Sequence record: MG748548
From: Escherichia phage EP335
Length of the DNA: 64,000 nt
Direction: 5' to 3' (one strand)
The notes under the pieces were generated by a model. That model worked only from the letters and a program-made list of their open reading frames with translations. It had not been told where the DNA came from and did no database searches. A program made the translations under genes and the position numbers. How positions within the stretch are numbered: the stretch's first letter is position 1; every line of letters starts with the position of its first letter. This document shows positions 20,876 through 53,579 of this stretch, in pieces.

Positions 20876-21517
20876 TTAAGACCCTTGGAATTCTTCCTTG
20901 TCGAAGTGCTTCTCTACCACATACTCATACAGATCTTTATACTCTGCATAACGCCGATAGAAAGTCCCGTGTGAGATGCCTAGCTCTTTCTGAATAGAAT
21001 CATGAGGGATACCTAAGAAGAGCATTGAGAACATGCTTGCGAGCTTCTGTGTGTCCATTGTATCACTCAAATCTTGGAAGAAGTAGAAGATACGAGATTC
21101 CATGAAAGGGTCCCCAACTGAATCATGCTTATTAACTGCATATTCCAGAGGACCTTCTGAGTAAATGTCAGGGTTGTTAAACATATCTGCTTCTGGAATA
21201 GCATAGATACGTCGATCACCAACTGTCTGTCGATTAGAACGGATAGACCAGATGATATTCTTCACACGATAGGTCATGTGCTCAATCTCTACTTCACCTT
21301 CCAGTAGAAGCTCTTCTTGCTTGGAATAGATAAAACGCCAAACATTAAGCAACACCTCTTGAGCTACATCCTCTGCTTCATGATAGTCACGAATGTCATA
21401 CATAAAGAATTTGTGAACCACTTTCCAGTTCACCTTATAGAACTCATCGAAGGTTGGGAAGTATTTGATTGGAATACCGTGAATACGATATCGAGTAGGT
21501 GTTGTTTTCTTAGCCAC
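20876..21517 (-). CDS. Phage sigma factor (ECF-like, sigma-70 regions 2 and 4)
   Basis: Region-2-like [15 protein letters not shown] and C-terminal [19 protein letters not shown]; no phage RNA polymerase gene is seen in the window. Confidence 0.6.
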
Positions 21518-22304: not shown

Positions 22305-23045
22305 TTAGAATGGAGATTCGTCTTCTTCAAAAGTAGACTCAGGCTCACGATCGATAGTAGGGATAGAAGCAACCGGCTCTTTCTGCTCGTTCTCAGAAGC
22401 CTTAGTGACTTCACGACCAGCGAGAGGAATGTTCTTAGCGTCATTAGCTTGGGTAAGCAGGTTACGCTGGAATGGGAAGATTACCTGATAAGCAGCTACG
22501 TTATCATCTGTTTCAGCATACGGTTCGAAGAAGACCAGAGGACTGCGAGCAGCAGCAACAGCTTCACGATACTTGGTAGGAATCGGAGTAATCTGTTTGA
22601 TAGAGTTCTTAACTTCACCAGCTTTGTTGGTGTAAGAGTTGATTAGAACGTTTACAGGCTGACCTAACAGCATTTCTTTAAACCAAGCCAAATCACCTTT
22701 CAGTGCTTGGATGCTAGGGTCAACCATCTTAATTAGGTTGAGAATACCAGAGTTCTTAGCTCGTGGGTTTACATCGAAGCTCTTAAACTGACATGCAGGG
22801 CGCGGGTCAAGAGCATTGCCTTCAGAGTCCTTACCGGTTGCATCAACACCAATCAGCTCAAACGCCAAGTCCATACGGAAAGCTGGGTTCTTAGGAGTAA
22901 CTGCTTTAGTCTTAGGGTCAACCCAAGGGTCACGATTGTGAACACCAAGACCAACAACACGAACGATACGAGCTTCGTACTCACCATCAGGGATTACGTC
23001 GTAGTTGGATTTACGGGAAACGGACATAGTTGGGATAGAAGACAT
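22305..23045 (-). CDS. Putative single-stranded DNA-binding protein
   Basis: 246-aa protein ending in acidic tail EEDESPF (terminal Phe, as in SSB C-termini); weakly supported. Confidence 0.45.
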   Translation of the reverse strand: MSSIPTMSVSRKSNYDVIPDGEYEARIVRVVGLGVHNRDPWVDPKTKAVTPKNPAFRMDLAFELIGVDATGKDSEGNALDPRPACQFKSFDVNPRAKNSGILNLIKMVDPSIQALKGDLAWFKEMLLGQPVNVLINSYTNKAGEVKNSIKQITPIPTKYREAVAAARSPLVFFEPYAETDDNVAAYQVIFPFQRNLLTQANDAKNIPLAGREVTKASENEQKEPVASIPTIDREPESTFEEDESPF

Positions 23046-23102
23046 ATTTTAATTTCCTTATTTAATTTAAGATTGTTGCTCACTTTGAGCGGTTATGTAT
23101 AG

Positions 23103-23111
23103 TATACATTA
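23103..23111 (-). promoter_or_regulatory. TAATGTATA promoter-like element upstream of the SSB-like gene
   Basis: Reverse complement of 23103-23111 is TAATGTATA, about 60 nt upstream of the start at 23045; a second copy in + orientation lies at 23175-23183. Confidence 0.4.
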
Positions 23112-23590
23112 CACCTATACCGATAAGGGTGCTATATAGTATAAGCAGTAGTGGTAGTAGATATTGACTACTAGTAATGTATATATTGTATAGATGATAA
23201 TTCTATTGCAGGCTTGTATATTGGGCAATTCTCAGAATCCCTTGCAAGTACCGAAGGGCAGGAGACACCTGCGAGATAAAAATAGAGAATTAAGGAATCC
23301 TTGATTTAGGTTGTAGGGACTCCTAGGGACTTTGATTCTCTATTTAAAAGAAATATTAATTACTTACTACCTAAATAGTTAACTAACTTACTTAAAACCT
23401 TTTCAATAAGAATTGCTAAAAGGATAATTCCTAAGAAAGCTAATAAGAGAAAGGCATAAGTTACCATTCCATCATTCCTTTTAATCTAGATTCTTCTACT
23501 ATTCGCTGATAGAGTAAGTTAGACTCAGCTTGATCTTTTAACATTTTACTGTATTGATCTCTGAGACTATCTTTATAAACAACAGGTGGT

Positions 23591-24097
23591 TTAAATAGTG
23601 ATGATACTTTGTTCTTTTCTTCTTTCATCAAAAGTCTTCCTAATCTCTTGCAGAGATACAGCTTTAAAGTTGATTTGTTCCATCGAGGTACAGAAGTATC
23701 TCCAATCATCAATCACATGATTGTGAGTATGAGCATAGATGTTGAACTTCCCTCTCATTTCATCAGCGTGAATGGGAATGTGAGTCACCCAAAACTCTTT
23801 GTACTTGAAGTCACCTGATACAGTTCTGAACACTTTCATAATCTGTGGTAACAAATCCAGTCTGTCATGATTCCCTAAGACAAGATGCTTCTCGCCTTTA
23901 ATCTCATAGATGATATCCAGTGCATATGGTTCAAACACCCAATCACCAGTGAAGAAAGTCTTATCTCGTTTAGTCACATGGTCAAACGCTGAAAGAACTG
24001 CTTTATCGTGCTCTTCAATACTACCAAACTGTTTACGAAACTTGCAGATATTACGATGACCTAAGTGACCATCTCCTGCGAAATATACTTCAGCCAT
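23591..24097 (-). CDS. Metallophosphoesterase (calcineurin-like phosphatase)
   Basis: Motifs GDGHLGH, GDWVF, GNHD and HTH match the MPP signature D-x-H...GD...GNH[DE]. Confidence 0.8.
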   Translation of the reverse strand: MAEVYFAGDGHLGHRNICKFRKQFGSIEEHDKAVLSAFDHVTKRDKTFFTGDWVFEPYALDIIYEIKGEKHLVLGNHDRLDLLPQIMKVFRTVSGDFKYKEFWVTHIPIHADEMRGKFNIYAHTHNHVIDDWRYFCTSMEQINFKAVSLQEIRKTFDERRKEQSIITI

Positions 24098-32790: not shown

Positions 32791-33378
32791 TTAGTATGAG
32801 ACGTCACTAGAGTGTGACATGTTACTTTTAACGAAGTAGCAATACTTGCCTAACCCTTCGTTGATTTCTTGGAGCATGCTCTGGTCAACTGGATACTCGC
32901 TCAAACATCCATCGAACTCATCCATTTTGTCAATCATGCACATTAAAGACATGCACATATCAGAGAGCATACCATCCATATCTAGGTCTGCATTTCCTTC
33001 AGAGAACCAAGAGTGTGATAGGTAGTTAGAAGCAGTTGCATCCACCTTAATACAGTGGAAACGCATACGTTCAGCTATCCGATCACCTGTCTCACGAGCA
33101 TAATCTTCAAGCTCATCAAACATTCCATGAACACCCTGAAATCCTGCACCAGATACGTTCCAGTGATAATTCTTAGCTTTGATATGCAAGAGTTCTAAAT
33201 TAGCTTGAATACCGCATAGAATGTGTTCTAGGCTGTTTCCACTAATCATCCCTTGCATACGCTCTAAACGGGAGATAGAAGAGTCTGTTTCACGTAATAC
33301 ATCACGGAAAGAAGTCTCTTTTGTTAGAGTTGGTAGGTCGAAAACATTGTGATTAGGCATTAGGATTCTCTCCATCAA
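32791..33378 (-). CDS. Dps/ferritin-like protein
   Basis: NYHWNVSGAGFQGVHGMFDELEDYARETGDRIAERM matches the Dps ferroxidase-centre region (HWN..G..F...H..F.E...........AER). Confidence 0.6.
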   Translation of the reverse strand: MMERILMPNHNVFDLPTLTKETSFRDVLRETDSSISRLERMQGMISGNSLEHILCGIQANLELLHIKAKNYHWNVSGAGFQGVHGMFDELEDYARETGDRIAERMRFHCIKVDATASNYLSHSWFSEGNADLDMDGMLSDMCMSLMCMIDKMDEFDGCLSEYPVDQSMLQEINEGLGKYCYFVKSNMSHSSDVSY

Positions 33379-33682
33379 GTTCTACTGAGTTCGCAACATT
33401 GCGTGTAATGTTATCCATTACCTGTTGGGTGATAACGATGCAGTTCTGTGGGTCAACCGACTTAGAACGTCCCATCTCAGGGTCATACACTTTAACGCGC
33501 TTTGCTGTAGAACCAGTTACCTGTAACACCTTGAGAAGATAACCCTGATTCCCGATAGACCATGCAACAACATCACGATTCTTGATGAATCGACCAAGCA
33601 TATCACGATGATAGAACTGCTGCATAACCTTTGATTTATTAATCTCTTCGGCTGGCGGAGCCACTTTACTCAAATCTAACAT
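33353..33682 (-). CDS. Hypothetical protein
   Basis: 109-aa ORF; AAATGTATATA motif 40 nt upstream. Confidence 0.45.
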   Translation of the reverse strand: MLDLSKVAPPAEEINKSKVMQQFYHRDMLGRFIKNRDVVAWSIGNQGYLLKVLQVTGSTAKRVKVYDPEMGRSKSVDPQNCIVITQQVMDNITRNVANSVELDGENPNA

Positions 33683-33754
33683 TTCACTCTCTCCTGTTCA
33701 ATACAATATTCTTATACTGTATATACATTTGAGAGTGATCATATCTACTACCAA

Positions 33755-33961
33755 CTAGTAGAAAACTGCTTTGGATATAAAAGAGCCAGTATTAGGGTCC
33801 TCATGCCATCGATGCATAGTGACTTTTGAGATAACCTTGCAAGCTTTCAAGTTTTTCTTGGTGAGACGAGCTTCTTCTCTGGTGTTGAATAACTTGATGG
33901 TATCTTTACCCACACGCTCTTCTACTCTCCACACTATTCGTATAGCCCACATCTTTTTCAT
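33755..33961 (-). CDS. Small protein, member 1 of a tandem paralog triplet
   Basis: MKKMWAIRIVWRVEE..., similar in length and pattern to the next two genes. Confidence 0.45.
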   Translation of the reverse strand: MKKMWAIRIVWRVEERVGKDTIKLFNTREEARLTKKNLKACKVISKVTMHRWHEDPNTGSFISKAVFY

Positions 33962-34921: not shown

Positions 34922-36202
34922 TTAATCTGCGATACTGTCGCTTTCGTCCATCCAGACTGGACTGTTAACCTGTCCTAGACGACGAGCTGATGTTTCGTTA
35001 ATAGAGTTAACCCCTGCTGTGCGAGGGTTTGTGTACCACGGTCGAGCTATGGTGCCCTCTCGAATCACTTGGTTCGTTTCGACATGCCATCTGTTTGATA
35101 CCGTGTTGGCTCCGAAGTTACCACCCGCCCCACCACTAACAGGTACAGCTTGAGCTGGTTGGTTTACTCGGTTAGTTCCTGCCCCAAAGGCTGCTGCAAA
35201 TTCAGACACACGTGCATCAAATGAAGAACGAACACGCTGAGTAGGTGATATATCATTTCGTGTATCTACTGCACGAGGCATAGCCCAAGTATCATCTGTT
35301 GAGATATCAGGGGTAGGCTCTTGCTCTAGAGGTTGAAGATTAGCTGTCCATTGACTATTCAGTATACGATAGAAATCTGCACCATAACCACTTCGGATAA
35401 CATCCTCTCTGACACCAAAGAAGCGACTGATATCCCCACCGATTCGGGCTAGTTTGTCATTGTATGCAGGTATGATTATTCCACCCTCTGTCACTAAATC
35501 AGAGACACGACTTGTTGTAAGTGGTGAAGTGATCCAACAATAATAATCAGTAATGTGACCATCGTATCCGAAGAATGCAATCTCTGCATCAGGCCATTTC
35601 TTGTGGACATATGCCACTTCACGGTTAGAACAAACAGGGATTGCACCTGTTTCAGTCATTGCATAGAAGCCGTCAGAAGAGAACCAAAGTGAATCTAGTG
35701 CTAAGAATCCACGACACACGCTCGGGAAAGTAGCAGCCAGCGCCCCAAGTGAGGTAGGTTCATTGAACATTAACTGAATCTTTGCACCCTGATAATTAAT
35801 CTCTAGGATATCTACAAAATTCAAAGAAGACCCAGGGGCATATTGATTATTACTTCGTCCAATATCCTGCTCAATGAGAAGAGATCTTGTTTCAACACCA
35901 TGAGCCTCTGCCCACTCTTTGAAATCTTCAAGGAACAAGCGAGCCTTAGCTCGCCACATCGACCGATCAATTACAGACTGTCTCGGCAATCCACCCTCTG
36001 TAGTGATGAGAAAGATATCAATGTCGTGAGGTTCACGCGTCTGAAAGATTGCATCCCTAACAGCACCACCTGCAATGATAGGGTACACACCATCAGGGAT
36101 TAAACGGTTTGCAATCAACTCGTTAATTAACGTAAGACCAGACACAAGCTGCGGACTATCATCAATCCGTCGACGAATTAGTGCATTAGGGATATTATAC
36201 AT
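34922..36202 (-). CDS. Pol-beta superfamily nucleotidyltransferase (CCA-adding-enzyme-like head domain) with long Gly/Asn-rich C-terminal region
   Basis: IIAGGAVRDAIFQTREPHDIDIFLI matches the GG-x-R-D ... D-x-D nucleotidyltransferase motif of class II CCA-adding / poly(A) polymerase enzymes. Confidence 0.55.
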   Translation of the reverse strand: MYNIPNALIRRRIDDSPQLVSGLTLINELIANRLIPDGVYPIIAGGAVRDAIFQTREPHDIDIFLITTEGGLPRQSVIDRSMWRAKARLFLEDFKEWAEAHGVETRSLLIEQDIGRSNNQYAPGSSLNFVDILEINYQGAKIQLMFNEPTSLGALAATFPSVCRGFLALDSLWFSSDGFYAMTETGAIPVCSNREVAYVHKKWPDAEIAFFGYDGHITDYYCWITSPLTTSRVSDLVTEGGIIIPAYNDKLARIGGDISRFFGVREDVIRSGYGADFYRILNSQWTANLQPLEQEPTPDISTDDTWAMPRAVDTRNDISPTQRVRSSFDARVSEFAAAFGAGTNRVNQPAQAVPVSGGAGGNFGANTVSNRWHVETNQVIREGTIARPWYTNPRTAGVNSINETSARRLGQVNSPVWMDESDSIAD

Positions 36203-36751
36203 TTACATTTTCCAATATAAAGATGGGGGGTCATTTGGGTCAAAGTTTGCAATATGACAAAGATATTTATAAACCTTAACCGTTAAGTTTACGTCCTGTT
36301 CACAATAAGTAAACATGTCCTCTGTAAAGGCATCCCATGCTTCTTCCTGTTCACCGTAATCGCCCTTAAGCTCTTCTAAGAACTCACCCCATTGCTTTAA
36401 GCCATGACCTCTTGGGCCATGTCTAGGGTCGCCTTTCGGATACTCAGGACTGTCACCAATACGGTCAGGTTTAAGATACCGACTCAGACATAAAGTGTCT
36501 AGGACGTTGAATTTGTATTTGATTAATTTCGGATATACTTTCTTCAGAGCTGGAAGGTCGAAGTCAATAATATTATGACCTACAACAATATCAGCCTCTG
36601 TAAGTTTCTTGATACCCTCTTCAATCTGGTGAGGACGAAATCCCCACCGTTCACCAGTTGCTATATCGAAGATAAAGATACACCATACGTTTGTGATATT
36701 GTCGTACAGTGCATCACTCTCAATATCAAATGCGTAGACTTTCTTTACCAC
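36203..36751 (-). CDS. DNA polymerase family A, 3'-5' exonuclease domain (T7 gp5 N-terminal-like), separate gene
   Basis: Exo I AFDIESD, Exo [13 protein letters not shown], Exo [12 protein letters not shown]; [11 protein letters not shown] and [19 protein letters not shown] resemble T7 gp5 N-terminal blocks; stop after ~182 aa. Confidence 0.85.
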
Positions 36752-53503: not shown

Positions 53504-53579
53504 TGGTGCGCCCTACAGGATTCGAACCTGTAACCAATAGCTTAGAAGGCTACTGCTCTATCCGTTGAGCTAAGAGCGC
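53504..53579 (-). tRNA. tRNA-Arg (anticodon UCU), CCA encoded
   Basis: Reverse complement folds as a canonical cloverleaf: acceptor GCGCTCT/AGGGCGC, D-arm GCTC-AACGGATA-GAGC, anticodon arm GTAGC-CTTCTAA-GCTAT, T-arm ACAGG-TTCGAAT-CCTGT, then A-CCA. Confidence 0.9.

What the first reader, a model, noticed from the sequence alone, without database searches (positions are those of the whole stretch)
23046..23460. 415-bp non-coding region with divergent TAATGTATA motifs and TATA-rich repeats upstream of the SSB-like gene
This region holds a leftward TAATGTATA (23103-23111) and a rightward one (23175-23183) 64 bp apart, plus TTATGTATAG, GCTATATAGTATAAG and CTTGTATATTG variants. The rightward motif points away from all annotated - strand genes, so it would produce an antisense or non-coding transcript, or the cluster is an origin-like AT-rich element. 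A 35-codon hydrophobic ORF (about 23359-23466, -) also lies here.
Basis: seen in the sequence. Interest (0 to 1): 0.45.

Follow-up and report, generated by a model that had tools for sequence, protein, structure and literature searches.

The report
Unlisted phage promoter driving conserved RNA
This gap in a phiEco32-like coliphage holds the known promoter of the SSB-like gene plus an undescribed, almost invariant promoter facing the other way, which appears to make a conserved, folded, non-coding RNA of about 160 bases whose function is unknown.

Summary
The window is Escherichia phage KarlSchell_Bas89, a phiEco32-like phage. TAATGTATA is the published promoter motif of the phage sigma factor gp36. 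The leftward copy (23103-23111, -) is the known middle promoter P40 of the SSB-like gene.

The rightward copy (23175-23185, +) is not among the six published gp36 promoters. It is unchanged in 26 of 27 relatives aligned. It carries the same upstream box as the structurally characterised promoter P68 (GGTAGTAGATA, 23153-23163), at the same spacing and with every base shown to matter for P68.

It faces no gene. From the predicted start (about 23190) to 23347 lies a block found once in all 97 related GenBank phages, at 90% identity or more. The block varies far less than silent codon positions of the neighbouring gene and holds no conserved ORF. It can fold into four hairpins, but only the first has covariation.

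Rearrangements in relatives stop exactly at the upstream promoter box and at the last hairpin. This fits a self-contained RNA gene, and I found no RNA family, host match or published description for it.

Expression and function are untested. A replication-origin role is neither supported nor excluded. The other "TATA-rich variants" are incidental. The 35-codon ORF is a separate, dispensable small membrane-protein gene.

The parts
22305..23045 (-). Gene 40 homologue (246 aa, 'SSB-like'), the gene served by the leftward promoter.
   Evidence: ORF listed and translated. It matches phrog_6599 over its full length at E=1e-107, a family of unknown function. It has no Pfam hit and no match to solved structures, either alone or as a profile. 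The C-terminus is EEDESPF. D242, P245 and F246 are invariant in 7 homologues down to 40% identity, with consensus FDDDxPF. That resembles the acidic tail of E. coli SSB, DDDIPF (my own knowledge). One GenBank record names the homologue an ssDNA-binding protein. The single-sequence AlphaFold model was unusable, with mean pLDDT 36.
23096..23135 (-). P40, the known gp36-dependent middle promoter. The TAATGTATA element is at 23103-23111 (-) and the predicted start is about 23096.
   Evidence: The sequence matches the SU10 'middle promoter between CDS37 and CDS38'. P40 is listed as TAATGTATA among the six phiEco32 gp36 promoters. The start is placed 6-8 nt downstream of the motif, following. The -34A position is present, but -37 is A rather than G.
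23153..23163 (+). Upstream (-35) box GGTAGTAGATA of the rightward promoter, spanning -37 to -27.
   Evidence: The exact 11-mer occurs only twice in the window, here and at 33742-33752 (-), which is the P68 homologue. In both cases it sits 12 nt upstream of AATGTATATA. It contains -37G and -34A, the two contacts of the gp36 C-terminal domain whose mutation abolishes transcription. GGTAGTA is invariant in all 25 distinct relatives aligned.
23175..23185 (+). -10-type element TAATGTATATA of the rightward promoter. The predicted start is A23190, give or take 1.
   Evidence: The position is confirmed. It carries -14A, -13A, -12T and -11G as in P68. The AATGTATA core is intact in 26 of 27 relatives. 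One metagenome contig, L033, has AATATATA. It is absent from the published list of six promoters and from promoter annotations in the SU7 and 4E8 records.
23190..23347 (+). Candidate non-coding RNA gene, about 158 nt here and about 184 nt in type-B relatives.
   Evidence: The 99-nt 3' block (23250-23348) is present once in all 97 related phage records at 90% identity or more, and at 95% or more in 81 of them. It is unannotated in the 12 records listed. The flanking 3 kb is 80-90% identical in 94 of the 97. In the 3' block 21 of 108 alignment columns vary, against 103 of 165 third-codon positions of gene 40. There is no conserved ATG, and all codon positions are equally invariant. It has no credible Rfam match (best E=0.15, far below each family's threshold) and no E. 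coli match. An exact 26-nt pattern from the block found no copy in bacterial genomes. Local GC skew is positive, which is the sense-strand sign in this genome.
23188..23209 (+). H1, a hairpin at the 5' end of the predicted transcript.
   Evidence: RNAalifold predicts it in both sequence types. Two pairs show compensatory changes: A-U, C-G and U-A at one pair, U-A and G-C at another. One pair is G-C or G-U. The G-U pair would be a C-A mismatch on the - strand. P68 shares sequence through this initially transcribed region.
23212..23249 (+). H2, the variable module. It is type A here and is replaced by a longer branched type-B module in ECBP2, MN05, myPSH2311 and several metagenome contigs.
   Evidence: The alignments are. 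Both types fold into a closed stem-loop domain at the same position. On the + strand it folds at -9.1 kcal/mol (z -1.4). On the - strand it folds at -4.3 kcal/mol (z +0.5). There is no covariation within type A.
23258..23272 (+). H3, the hairpin GCAGG-AGACA-CCUGC.
   Evidence: It folds at -7.9 kcal/mol with z -3.1. The stem is invariant and the only polymorphism, A or C, is in the loop.
23280..23345 (.). H4, a long irregular hairpin that forms the 3' boundary of the conserved unit. It is a candidate two-way terminator or 3'-end stabiliser. It contains the direct repeat TAGGGACT at 23314-23321 and 23324-23331.
   Evidence: It shows as inverted repeat I2. It folds at -23.5 kcal/mol on the + strand (z -3.2) and -18.2 on the - strand (z -3.5), with 0 of 200 shuffles doing as well on either. 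The 16-bp lower stem on the + strand uses three G-U pairs. XT32 has an A-U to G-U change there. On the - strand it lies 13 nt after the gene 41 stop codon and is followed by UUUUUAU. The simple terminator scan did not flag it. Homology stops at about 23347 in relatives that lack genes 41 and 42.
23360..23467 (-). The 35-aa hydrophobic ORF (phiEco32 gp41 homologue). It is a separate small gene and not part of the element.
   Evidence: It translates to MVTYAFLLLAFLGIILLAILIEKVLSKLVNYLGSK and matches phrog_24970 at E=4e-15. The protein is conserved with amino-acid variation in 11 of 21 relatives. PAS59 and IME267 appear to keep it behind a GTG start, and EcoN5 carries a deletion in it. It is missing, together with gene 42, in Paul, XT32, Bas86, EK010, TH42, ECBP2, Bas92 and UViG45988.

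Best explanation
The region holds two back-to-back promoters for the phage sigma factor gp36.

- **P40 (leftward, already known).** It starts the mRNA of the SSB-like gene 40.
- **The rightward promoter (not previously listed).** It is a paralogue of the strong middle promoter P68. From about 23190 it should be transcribed in mid-infection by E. coli RNA polymerase core carrying gp36, probably helped by gp79.
- **The product.** It would be a non-coding RNA of about 158 nt that opens with a 5' hairpin (H1), carries an exchangeable middle module (H2) and a small hairpin (H3), and ends at a long hairpin (H4).
- **H4.** It most likely sets or protects the 3' end of this RNA. Read on the other strand, it also ends or processes the leftward operon before P40 restarts transcription.
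- **Most likely role.** I think the RNA is a stable, trans-acting phage RNA that works through a conserved protein or RNA partner, not a cis-antisense RNA.

What is shown:
- motif identity and near-invariance;
- paralogy to P68;
- presence of the matching sigma factor;
- conservation of the block and absence of coding signal;
- covariation in H1;
- rearrangement breakpoints that flank the unit.

What is inferred: that the promoter fires, where the RNA ends, and what the RNA does.
For: **The motif is the published gp36 promoter element.** Start sites lie 6-8 nt downstream of it.

**The rightward site matches P68 at every reported contact.**
- It has -14A, -13A, -12T, -11G, -37G and -34A.
- The two promoters are homologous from about -38 to +22.
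- The -35 box occurs only at these two places in 64 kb.

**The cognate sigma factor is in the window.**
- ORF 20876-21517 (-) matches PDB 9m7y chain F at E=4.5e-121.
- It keeps E79, H80, Y83, R84, W90, S91, S94, N95 and the Tyr-Arg pair that contacts the -35 region.

**Conservation.**
- The promoter core is unchanged in 26 of 27 relatives.
- The 3' block is in 97 of 97 records at 90% identity or more.
- It varies much less than silent sites of the adjacent gene.

**Non-coding.** ORF starts and frames are not conserved.

**Strand and structure.**
- H1 has compensatory changes and a G-U pair that only works on the + strand.
- H2 folds only on the + strand.
- 6 of the 52 pairs of the + strand fold would be non-canonical on the - strand.
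- Local GC skew is positive.

**The unit behaves as one block.**
- An insertion of about 140 nt in myPSH2311-type phages ends immediately upstream of the -35 box.
- The deletion of genes 41 and 42 in Paul-type phages ends immediately after H4.

**Lineage-specific.** It is absent upstream of the gene 40 homologue in more distant relatives.
Against: - There is no expression evidence. The two primary phiEco32 papers (2008, 2012) could not be read, so an earlier mention cannot be ruled out.
- H2, H3 and H4 are invariant, so covariation neither supports nor refutes them.
- With the single-sequence fold, which does not depend on the alignment, variable columns are not significantly enriched in unpaired positions (p=0.15).
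- The whole-RNA fold is only marginally better than shuffles (z -1.8).
- H4 has no U-tract on the + strand (UUUAAAA or UUAAAAU) and was not called a terminator, so the 3' end is uncertain.
- One TH42 change in H4 is compatible with the - strand only.
- No target or partner was found. Complementarity within the window and to translation start regions is at chance level.
Confidence: 0.55

Rival explanations
1. Transcription-activated replication origin. The orphan gp36 promoter makes an RNA that opens or primes the adjacent AT-rich DNA, as at the T4 origins ori(34) and ori(uvsY), the T7 origin promoters, or ColE1 RNA II. The conserved structure would serve hybrid formation or processing.
For: - The promoter is of the middle class, which is when replication genes are expressed, and it serves no gene.
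- It sits inside the replication gene region, next to the SSB-like gene and about 3 kb from the DNA polymerase gene.
- DNA just downstream of H4 is 24-29% G+C.
- The transcript is G-rich relative to C, with skew +0.14 to +0.33.
- In phiEco32 the site lies near the middle of the linear genome, at about 36.7 of 77.6 kb.
- No origin has been described for this family in the papers searched.
Against: - There is no iteron array or initiator gene nearby. The TATA-rich repeats are poorly conserved.
- Cumulative GC skew has its extreme near 18 kb and none at 23 kb, though skew here follows transcription direction.
- The AT-rich DNA after H4 is a dispensable coding region that is replaced in a third of relatives.
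- T4- and T7-type origins do not need a 150-nt invariant transcript (my own knowledge).
- The distance between the two promoters changes by about 140 bp in some relatives.
Confidence: 0.2
2. The conserved block works on the - strand as the 3' end of the upstream middle operon. H4 would be a terminator or an RNase III-type processing hairpin followed by U5. The rightward promoter would then only provide convergent transcription or antisense RNA that helps insulate or process that operon.
For: - H4 begins 13 nt after the gene 41 stop codon, and about 33 nt after the phosphatase stop in Paul-type phages. It is followed on the - strand by the invariant UUUUUAU.
- H4 folds significantly on the - strand too (z -3.5).
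- P40 restarts transcription directly downstream.
- Long irregular intergenic hairpins are the form of T7 RNase III sites (my own knowledge).
Against: - It explains H4 only. H1-H3 (23188-23272) would lie between a terminator and the next promoter, yet they are conserved.
- H1 covariation includes a G-U pair that is a mismatch on the - strand.
- H2 does not fold on the - strand.
- An antisense or interference role needs no sequence conservation beyond the promoter, because complementarity is automatic.
- H4 was not detected by the terminator scan.
Confidence: 0.15
3. The block is a DNA-level element, either a binding site for a phage or host protein (for example on the TAGGGACT direct repeat spaced 10 bp) or a recombination or homing hot spot kept uniform by gene conversion. 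The promoter match would be incidental.
For: - TAGGGACT occurs twice one helical turn apart. Both copies lose a G together in the six relatives that carry the shortened form (Paul, XT32, TH42, EK010, ECBP2, mgOERV).
- Variant modules of H1, H2, H4 and the tail occur in mixed combinations, which shows frequent recombination here.
- HNH endonuclease genes sit nearby in several relatives, and at the equivalent position in GAP52.
Against: - Gene conversion would make the coding flanks uniform too, yet they are 80-90% identical.
- The spacing of the two repeats changes from 10 to 9 bp in the variant.
- The conserved unit begins exactly at the -37 position of a full-consensus promoter and carries a covarying hairpin at the predicted +1. 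A DNA site would not need either.
Confidence: 0.06
4. The rightward transcript is a leaderless or short-leader mRNA for a small protein, for example the 36-codon ORF at 23194-23304.
For: An ATG ORF starts 4 nt after the predicted start in Bas89 and KBNP1711. One reading frame, ending ...KGRRHLRDKNRELRNP, stays open in most relatives.
Against: - The ATG is CTG or absent in all other relatives. The remaining starts are TTG without a ribosome-binding site.
- A 1-nt deletion or insertion shifts the frame in several lineages.
- All three codon positions are equally invariant, which is the opposite of the pattern in gene 40.
Confidence: 0.03

Closest known systems
phiEco32 middle promoter P68 (gp36- and gp79-dependent; open-complex structure, PDB 9m7y)
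   Same: - It has the same -35 box, GGTAGTAGATA, the same 12-nt spacer length and the same AATGTATATA element.
- The first ~20 transcribed bases are similar.
- All bases reported as critical are present.
   Different: P68 is followed by a ribosome-binding site and a protein gene (109-aa ORF 33353-33682). The rightward promoter is followed by an ORF-free conserved block and points against every neighbouring gene. It is not in the published set of six promoters.
phiEco32 middle promoter P40
   Same: The leftward motif is P40 itself, with the same sequence and position as in SU10 and phiEco32. The two promoters share a perfect 10-nt inverted repeat, GTAATGTATA.
   Different: P40 lacks the P68-type upstream box, with A at -37, and it serves a protein operon.
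T4 origins ori(34) and ori(uvsY), and the T7 orphan promoters phiOL and phiOR
   Same: These are phage-specific, replication-phase promoters that serve no protein gene and lie next to AT-rich DNA (my own knowledge, compared).
   Different: Those origins need no long, invariant, structured transcript. No origin activity or skew signal is seen here.
Phage-encoded stable non-coding RNAs (phi29 packaging RNA, T4 species 1 and 2 RNAs, P4 CI RNA, lambda OOP)
   Same: It is a discrete small RNA with its own promoter, conserved within a phage lineage and multi-hairpin in form.
   Different: It shares no sequence or structure family with any Rfam entry. It is driven by a phage sigma factor, and unlike OOP-type RNAs it overlaps no gene.
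Intergenic RNase III processing hairpins of T7, and two-way intrinsic terminators
   Same: H4 is a hairpin of about 65 nt with an internal loop. It lies between two transcription units, with an A-run before it and a T-run after it.
   Different: The stem is A+U-rich and the loop is large. It fails a simple terminator consensus. It is only the last quarter of the conserved unit.

Membership tests
gp36-dependent (phiEco32-type) middle/late promoter | The single consensus element tAATGTAtA, with the AATGTA core centred at -11.5. | tested here: met
   TAATGTATATA lies at 23175-23185 (+) and TAATGTATA at 23103-23111 (-).
gp36-dependent (phiEco32-type) middle/late promoter | The bases contacted by gp36 in the P68 open complex: -14A, -13A, -12T, -11G, -37G and -34A. 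| tested here: met
   All six are present in the rightward promoter at P68 spacing. P40 has the four -10 bases and -34A, but A at -37.
gp36-dependent (phiEco32-type) middle/late promoter | The cognate sigma factor is encoded by the same genome with its DNA-contact residues intact. | tested here: met
   ORF 20876-21517 (-) matches PDB 9m7y chain F at E=4.5e-121. The contact residues are present (one search read).
gp36-dependent (phiEco32-type) middle/late promoter | It is located upstream of a middle or late gene. The published promoters are named after the gene they precede. | tested here: not met
   This holds for P40. It does not hold for the rightward promoter: there is no conserved + strand ORF downstream, and all neighbouring genes are on the - strand.
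gp36-dependent (phiEco32-type) middle/late promoter | A start site mapped in vivo and transcription by the gp36 holoenzyme in vitro. | not testable with these tools
   The literature reports this for six promoters including P40. Nothing was found for the rightward one.
Any described RNA family (Rfam 15) | A covariance-model score at or near the family threshold. | tested here: not met
   The best hits in 22900-23700 score far below threshold (E 0.15 to 9), and none lies on the conserved block.
Structured non-coding RNA (generic) | Base pairs maintained by compensatory changes. | tested here: inconclusive
   H1 has 2 pairs with changes on both sides plus G-C/G-U variation. H2-H4 never vary. The loop-versus-stem test depends on which structure is used: p=0.0008 with the alignment-derived fold and p=0.15 with the single-sequence fold.
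Rho-independent terminator | A G+C-rich stem, a short loop, and a U-tract immediately after the stem. | tested here: not met
   No terminator-like site was found in 22800-23800 on either strand. H4 has an A+U-rich base and a large loop. A U5 run follows it on the - strand only.
Transcription-primed phage replication origin (T4 ori(34) or T7 type) | An orphan replication-phase promoter with easily unwound DNA downstream. | tested here: inconclusive
   The orphan promoter is present. DNA at 23350-23450 is 24-29% G+C, but it is coding and is replaced in a third of relatives.
Transcription-primed phage replication origin (T4 ori(34) or T7 type) | A mapped initiation site, or a compositional switch at the site. 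| tested here: not met
   The cumulative GC skew extreme is near 18 kb, at the switch in gene orientation, with no inflection at 23 kb. Initiation mapping is not possible with these tools.
Cis-antisense RNA | The conserved part of the RNA overlaps a gene on the opposite strand. | tested here: not met
   The conserved block 23190-23347 lies wholly between gene 40 and gene 41. Relatives lacking genes 41 and 42 keep it unchanged.
   It has no Pfam hit and no match to solved structures by sequence or profile. The single-sequence model had pLDDT 36 and was unusable. The only supporting signs are the invariant acidic ...D..PF tail and one record's product name.

The most novel reading that the evidence does not exclude
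The rightward gp36 promoter and its invariant transcript are the replication origin of the phiEco32-like phages, which has not been described. In this reading a sigma-factor-specific transcript forms a structured, G-rich RNA that stays hybridised to, or opens, the AT-rich DNA beyond H4 and primes the phage DNA polymerase. The SSB-like gene is transcribed divergently from the same spot.
Probability: 0.2. Interest if true: 0.7.

Novelty: new member of a known kind. Interest (0 to 1): 0.55.

Why it matters
phiEco32 is the model for how a phage swaps the host sigma factor for its own, and its promoter set has been treated as six sites, all in front of genes. A seventh, full-consensus and nearly invariant promoter that drives a non-coding RNA would add an RNA component to that programme. 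It is conserved as tightly as the amino-acid-determining codon positions of the neighbouring gene in all 97 sequenced relatives, many of them therapeutic candidates against pathogenic E. coli. It gives a precise object to delete or mutate (about 200 bp, one base for the promoter) and to map by RNA-seq. If it turns out to be the origin, it would answer where replication starts in this subfamily.

Tried and rejected
- **Known RNA family.** A permissive Rfam scan of 22900-23700 gave only chance-level hits off the block.
- **Host or other-phage homology.**
  - There was no E. coli match at E up to 10.
  - Nothing outside the same 97 phage records matched.
  - An exact 26-nt pattern from the block found no bacterial genome copy.
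  - IMG/VR and metagenome pattern scans returned only close relatives.
- **Second copy or target in the phage.** The longest shared or complementary words are 12 nt, at chance frequency. Duplex energies against 192 translation-start regions were no better than for shuffled RNA. That scan was crude.
- **Coding potential.** Rejected.
- **tRNA.** The only one in the window is at 53504-53579.
- **Sigma-70 promoters and terminators.** Matches were at chance level and there were no terminators.
- **Stems versus loops.** A test of whether variation avoids stems was significant only with the alignment-derived structure, which is circular. It was not significant with the single-sequence fold, so I do not rely on it.
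- **More distant relatives.** L011, GAP52, 7-11, Proteus J3S and Aeromonas LAh_8 have only a short gap upstream of the gene 40 homologue and lack the element. They gave no extra covariation.
- **CRISPR-repeat mimic.** I compared H3 by eye with E. coli type I-E and I-F repeats from memory. The arms do not correspond, so I rejected the idea.
- **Primary papers.** The 2008 and 2012 phiEco32 papers are not held.
- **Gene 40 fold.** Prediction from a single sequence failed.
Full report
**Identity of the window.** The 451 bases around the finding are 100% identical to Escherichia phage KarlSchell_Bas89 (PQ850613). They are 85-95% identical to 96 other phiEco32-like phages of E. coli and Shigella, in Gordonclarkvirinae (Kuravirus, Suseptimavirus). 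All genes around the region lie on the - strand. To the left is the 246-aa gene 40 homologue (22305-23045). To the right are the 35-aa gene 41 homologue (23360-23467), a 55-aa ORF and a phosphoesterase gene.

**The observation.**
- TAATGTATA occurs at 23103-23111 (-) and 23175-23183 (+). The window holds four copies against 0.69 expected.
- The three 'variants' exist, and two of them form a 16-nt direct repeat of 81% identity.
- The stretch without a gene is 314 bp (23046-23359), not 415 bp. The 35-codon ORF is an annotated, conserved small gene.

**What the motif is.** tAATGTAtA is the published promoter element of gp36, the sigma factor of phiEco32.
- gp36 directs E. coli RNA polymerase to middle and late genes, and starts lie 6-8 nt downstream of the motif.
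- Six such promoters are known: P6, P13, P26, P40, P58 and P68.
- The leftward copy is P40. Its sequence equals the SU10 'middle promoter between CDS37 and CDS38'.
- The other exact copies in the window are the P26 and P58 homologues. P68 (aAATGTATA) is at 33722-33729 (-).
- The window encodes the sigma factor itself at 20876-21517 (-). It matches PDB 9m7y chain F at E=4.5e-121 and keeps all the DNA-contact residues named in the structure paper.

**The rightward copy is a full promoter, not just a 9-mer.**
- Twelve bases upstream of AATGTATATA lies GGTAGTAGATA (23153-23163). That 11-mer occurs exactly twice in the window, here and at P68, at the same spacing.
- Aligned, the two promoters are homologous from about -38 to about +22.
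- In the P68 open complex, gp36 reads -14A, -13A, -12T, -11G, -37G and -34A. Mutating these bases reduces or abolishes transcription. All six are present here.
- P40, by contrast, has A at -37.
- Counting from the motif puts the start at A23190, give or take 1.
- This promoter is missing from the list of six and from the promoter annotations of the SU7 and 4E8 records.
- I could not read the 2008 and 2012 primary papers, so an older mention cannot be excluded.

**Conservation.** I aligned the gap from 21 GenBank and IMG/VR relatives, then added 6 metagenome contigs.
- The AATGTATA core is unchanged in 26 of 27. GGTAGTA of the upstream box is unchanged in all 25 distinct sequences aligned.
- One contig (L033) has AATATATA, which creates a perfect sigma-70 TATAAT.
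- Downstream, 23188-23347 is conserved far beyond its surroundings. The 99-nt block 23250-23348 is found once in all 97 records at 90% identity or more, and at 95% or more in 81. It is unannotated in the 12 records listed.
- The surrounding 3 kb is 80-90% identical in 94 of the 97.
- Among 25 sequences, 21 of 108 columns of the 3' block vary. This compares with 103 of 165 third-codon positions and about 13% of first and second positions in gene 40.

**The block behaves as a unit.**
- myPSH2311-type phages carry an extra ~140 nt with a small - strand ORF. It ends immediately upstream of the -35 box.
- Paul-type phages have lost genes 41 and 42. Homology ends immediately after the last hairpin, at about 23347.
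- More distant relatives keep the gene 40 homologue but have only a short gap upstream and no such element. These are a 67%-identical metagenome phage, GAP52, 7-11, Proteus J3S and Aeromonas LAh_8.

**It is not coding.**
- The 36-codon ATG ORF at 23194-23304 exists only in Bas89 and KBNP1711.
- Elsewhere the ATG is lost, only TTG starts remain, and single-base indels shift the frame.
- All three codon positions are equally invariant.

**Structure and strand.** RNAalifold gives the same architecture for the two sequence types.
- H1 (23188-23209) sits at the very 5' end. It has real support: two pairs with compensatory changes and a G-C/G-U pair. The G-U form, found in phiEco32 and many others, would be a C-A mismatch on the - strand.
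- H2 (23212-23249) is type A here. It is replaced wholesale by a longer branched type-B module in ECBP2, MN05, myPSH2311 and several contigs. It folds on the + strand only (-9.1 against -4.3 kcal/mol).
- H3 is GCAGG-AGACA-CCUGC (23258-23272).
- H4 is a long hairpin (23280-23345) that folds well on both strands, with z about -3.2 and -3.5. Its 16-bp lower stem on the + strand uses three G-U pairs.
- Six of the 52 + strand pairs are lost on the - strand.
- Local GC skew is positive, the sign of the sense strand in this genome.

**Limits of the structural evidence.**
- H2-H4 never vary, so covariation is silent on them.
- The whole-RNA fold is only marginally better than shuffles.
- The apparent excess of variation in loops vanishes when the structure is taken from one sequence instead of from the alignment.
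- H4 has no U-tract on the + strand and is not a canonical terminator. On the - strand it follows the gene 41 stop codon by 13 nt and is followed by UUUUUAU.

**Interpretation.** The simplest account of all this is a self-contained transcription unit: a P68-type promoter, an RNA of about 158 nt (about 184 nt in type B), and a terminal hairpin. H4 probably also ends or processes the leftward operon before P40 restarts it. Invariance well beyond what pairing requires suggests that the RNA, or just possibly the DNA, contacts a conserved partner.

**The search for a partner found nothing.**
- There was no credible Rfam family match.
- No similarity was found in E. coli genomes, and an exact-pattern scan found no copy in other bacterial genomes.
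- No phage outside this group matched.
- Complementarity within the phage was at chance level.

Function is therefore inferred. I favour a stable trans-acting RNA made in the middle period.

**Rivals.**
- **Origin.** A transcription-activated origin fits the orphan middle-class promoter, the position among replication genes next to the SSB-like gene, the AT-rich DNA beyond H4 and the G-rich transcript. It lacks iterons and any skew signal. The AT-rich DNA is dispensable coding sequence.
- **A - strand terminator or processing site.** This explains H4 but not the conserved, + strand-biased H1-H3.
- **A DNA-binding or recombination site.** This is suggested by the TAGGGACT repeat, whose two copies change together, and by the mix-and-match modules. 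It does not explain why the unit starts at -37 of a consensus promoter.

**The other items in the finding.**
- TTATGTATAG lies just downstream of the P40 motif, around the predicted P40 start. It has T where gp36 needs -14A, and it is replaced in Suseptimavirus-type phages.
- GCTATATAGTATAAG is P40 upstream DNA and is weakly conserved.
- CTTGTATATTG is one arm region of H2 type A.
- The 35-aa ORF is a plausible one-helix membrane peptide. It is conserved as protein but missing in about a third of relatives.
- 'SSB-like' for gene 40 rests on an invariant acidic ...D..PF tail and one record's product name. Sequence, profile and single-sequence structure searches gave nothing.

**Verdict.** The leftward motif is already known. 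The rightward motif marks an apparently undescribed gp36 promoter and a lineage-wide conserved non-coding RNA candidate. This is a new member of a known kind (a phage-encoded small RNA, or an orphan phage promoter), of moderate interest, and it awaits a simple transcript-mapping experiment.

Noticed in passing
window 33690-33770 (-) and 23150-23215 (+): The P68 homologue and the rightward promoter are paralogues from about -38 to +22, including the first transcribed bases (GTATA..ATT.TATTG). This suggests one arose by duplication of the other.
   Followed up: partly
L023 (myPSH2311) about 690-860; L009, L033-L037; equivalent to window 23119-23150: Some relatives carry an insertion of about 140 nt between P40 and the rightward promoter. 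It holds a small basic - strand ORF (MKFNHKYAATEKARAYV...) whose ATG abuts the -35 box. In these phages the box reads GGTAGTATATC.
   Followed up: no
L033 8935-8950 (metagenome contig ERZ1034915 NODE-75): This is the only relative with a changed promoter core. AATGTATA has become AATATATA, which loses the critical -11G but creates a perfect sigma-70 TATAAT.
   Followed up: no
window 22305-22325 (C-terminus of gene 40): The gene 40 product ends in EEDESPF. D, P and F are invariant in homologues down to 40% identity (consensus FDDDxPF). This is very like the C-terminal tip of E. coli SSB, which recruits partner proteins.
   Followed up: partly
window 23304-23315 and 23365-23376: The apical part of H4 (ATTTAGGTTGTA) shows 12-nt complementarity (11 of 12) with the last codons of the 35-aa gene (TACTACCTAAAT). 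It could be an alternative pairing or a duplication remnant, and it is about what chance allows.
   Followed up: no
window 23314-23331: The direct repeat TAGGGACT-CC-TAGGGACT becomes AGGACT-CCT-AGGACT in Paul, XT32, TH42, EK010, ECBP2 and mgOERV. Both copies lose a G together. The palindrome CCTAGG between them is kept in both forms.
   Followed up: partly
window 36196-36203 (-): This sixth AATGTATA match is embedded in TAAATGTATAAT at the junction of two - strand ORFs (36203-36751 and 34922-36202). It contains the stop and start codons, so it is probably not a promoter.
   Followed up: partly
L002 2566-2760 (phage 4E8, CDS g037c); equivalent to window about 23068-23262: The 4E8 record annotates a 64-aa - strand protein across P40, the rightward promoter and half of the RNA block. 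The ORF is not conserved in relatives and is probably spurious.
   Followed up: partly
L029 1088-1453 (Cronobacter phage GAP52): In GAP52 an HNH endonuclease gene sits directly upstream of the gene 40 homologue, where the RNA unit sits in the E. coli phages. HNH genes also lie close by in SU10 and Bas89. This gap seems to be an insertion hot spot.
   Followed up: no
window 23078-23090 (-): The predicted gene 40 mRNA carries a small hairpin, GCUCA-AAG-UGAGC, 6 nt after its predicted start. It reads GCUC-AAAGA-GAGC in most relatives.
   Followed up: no
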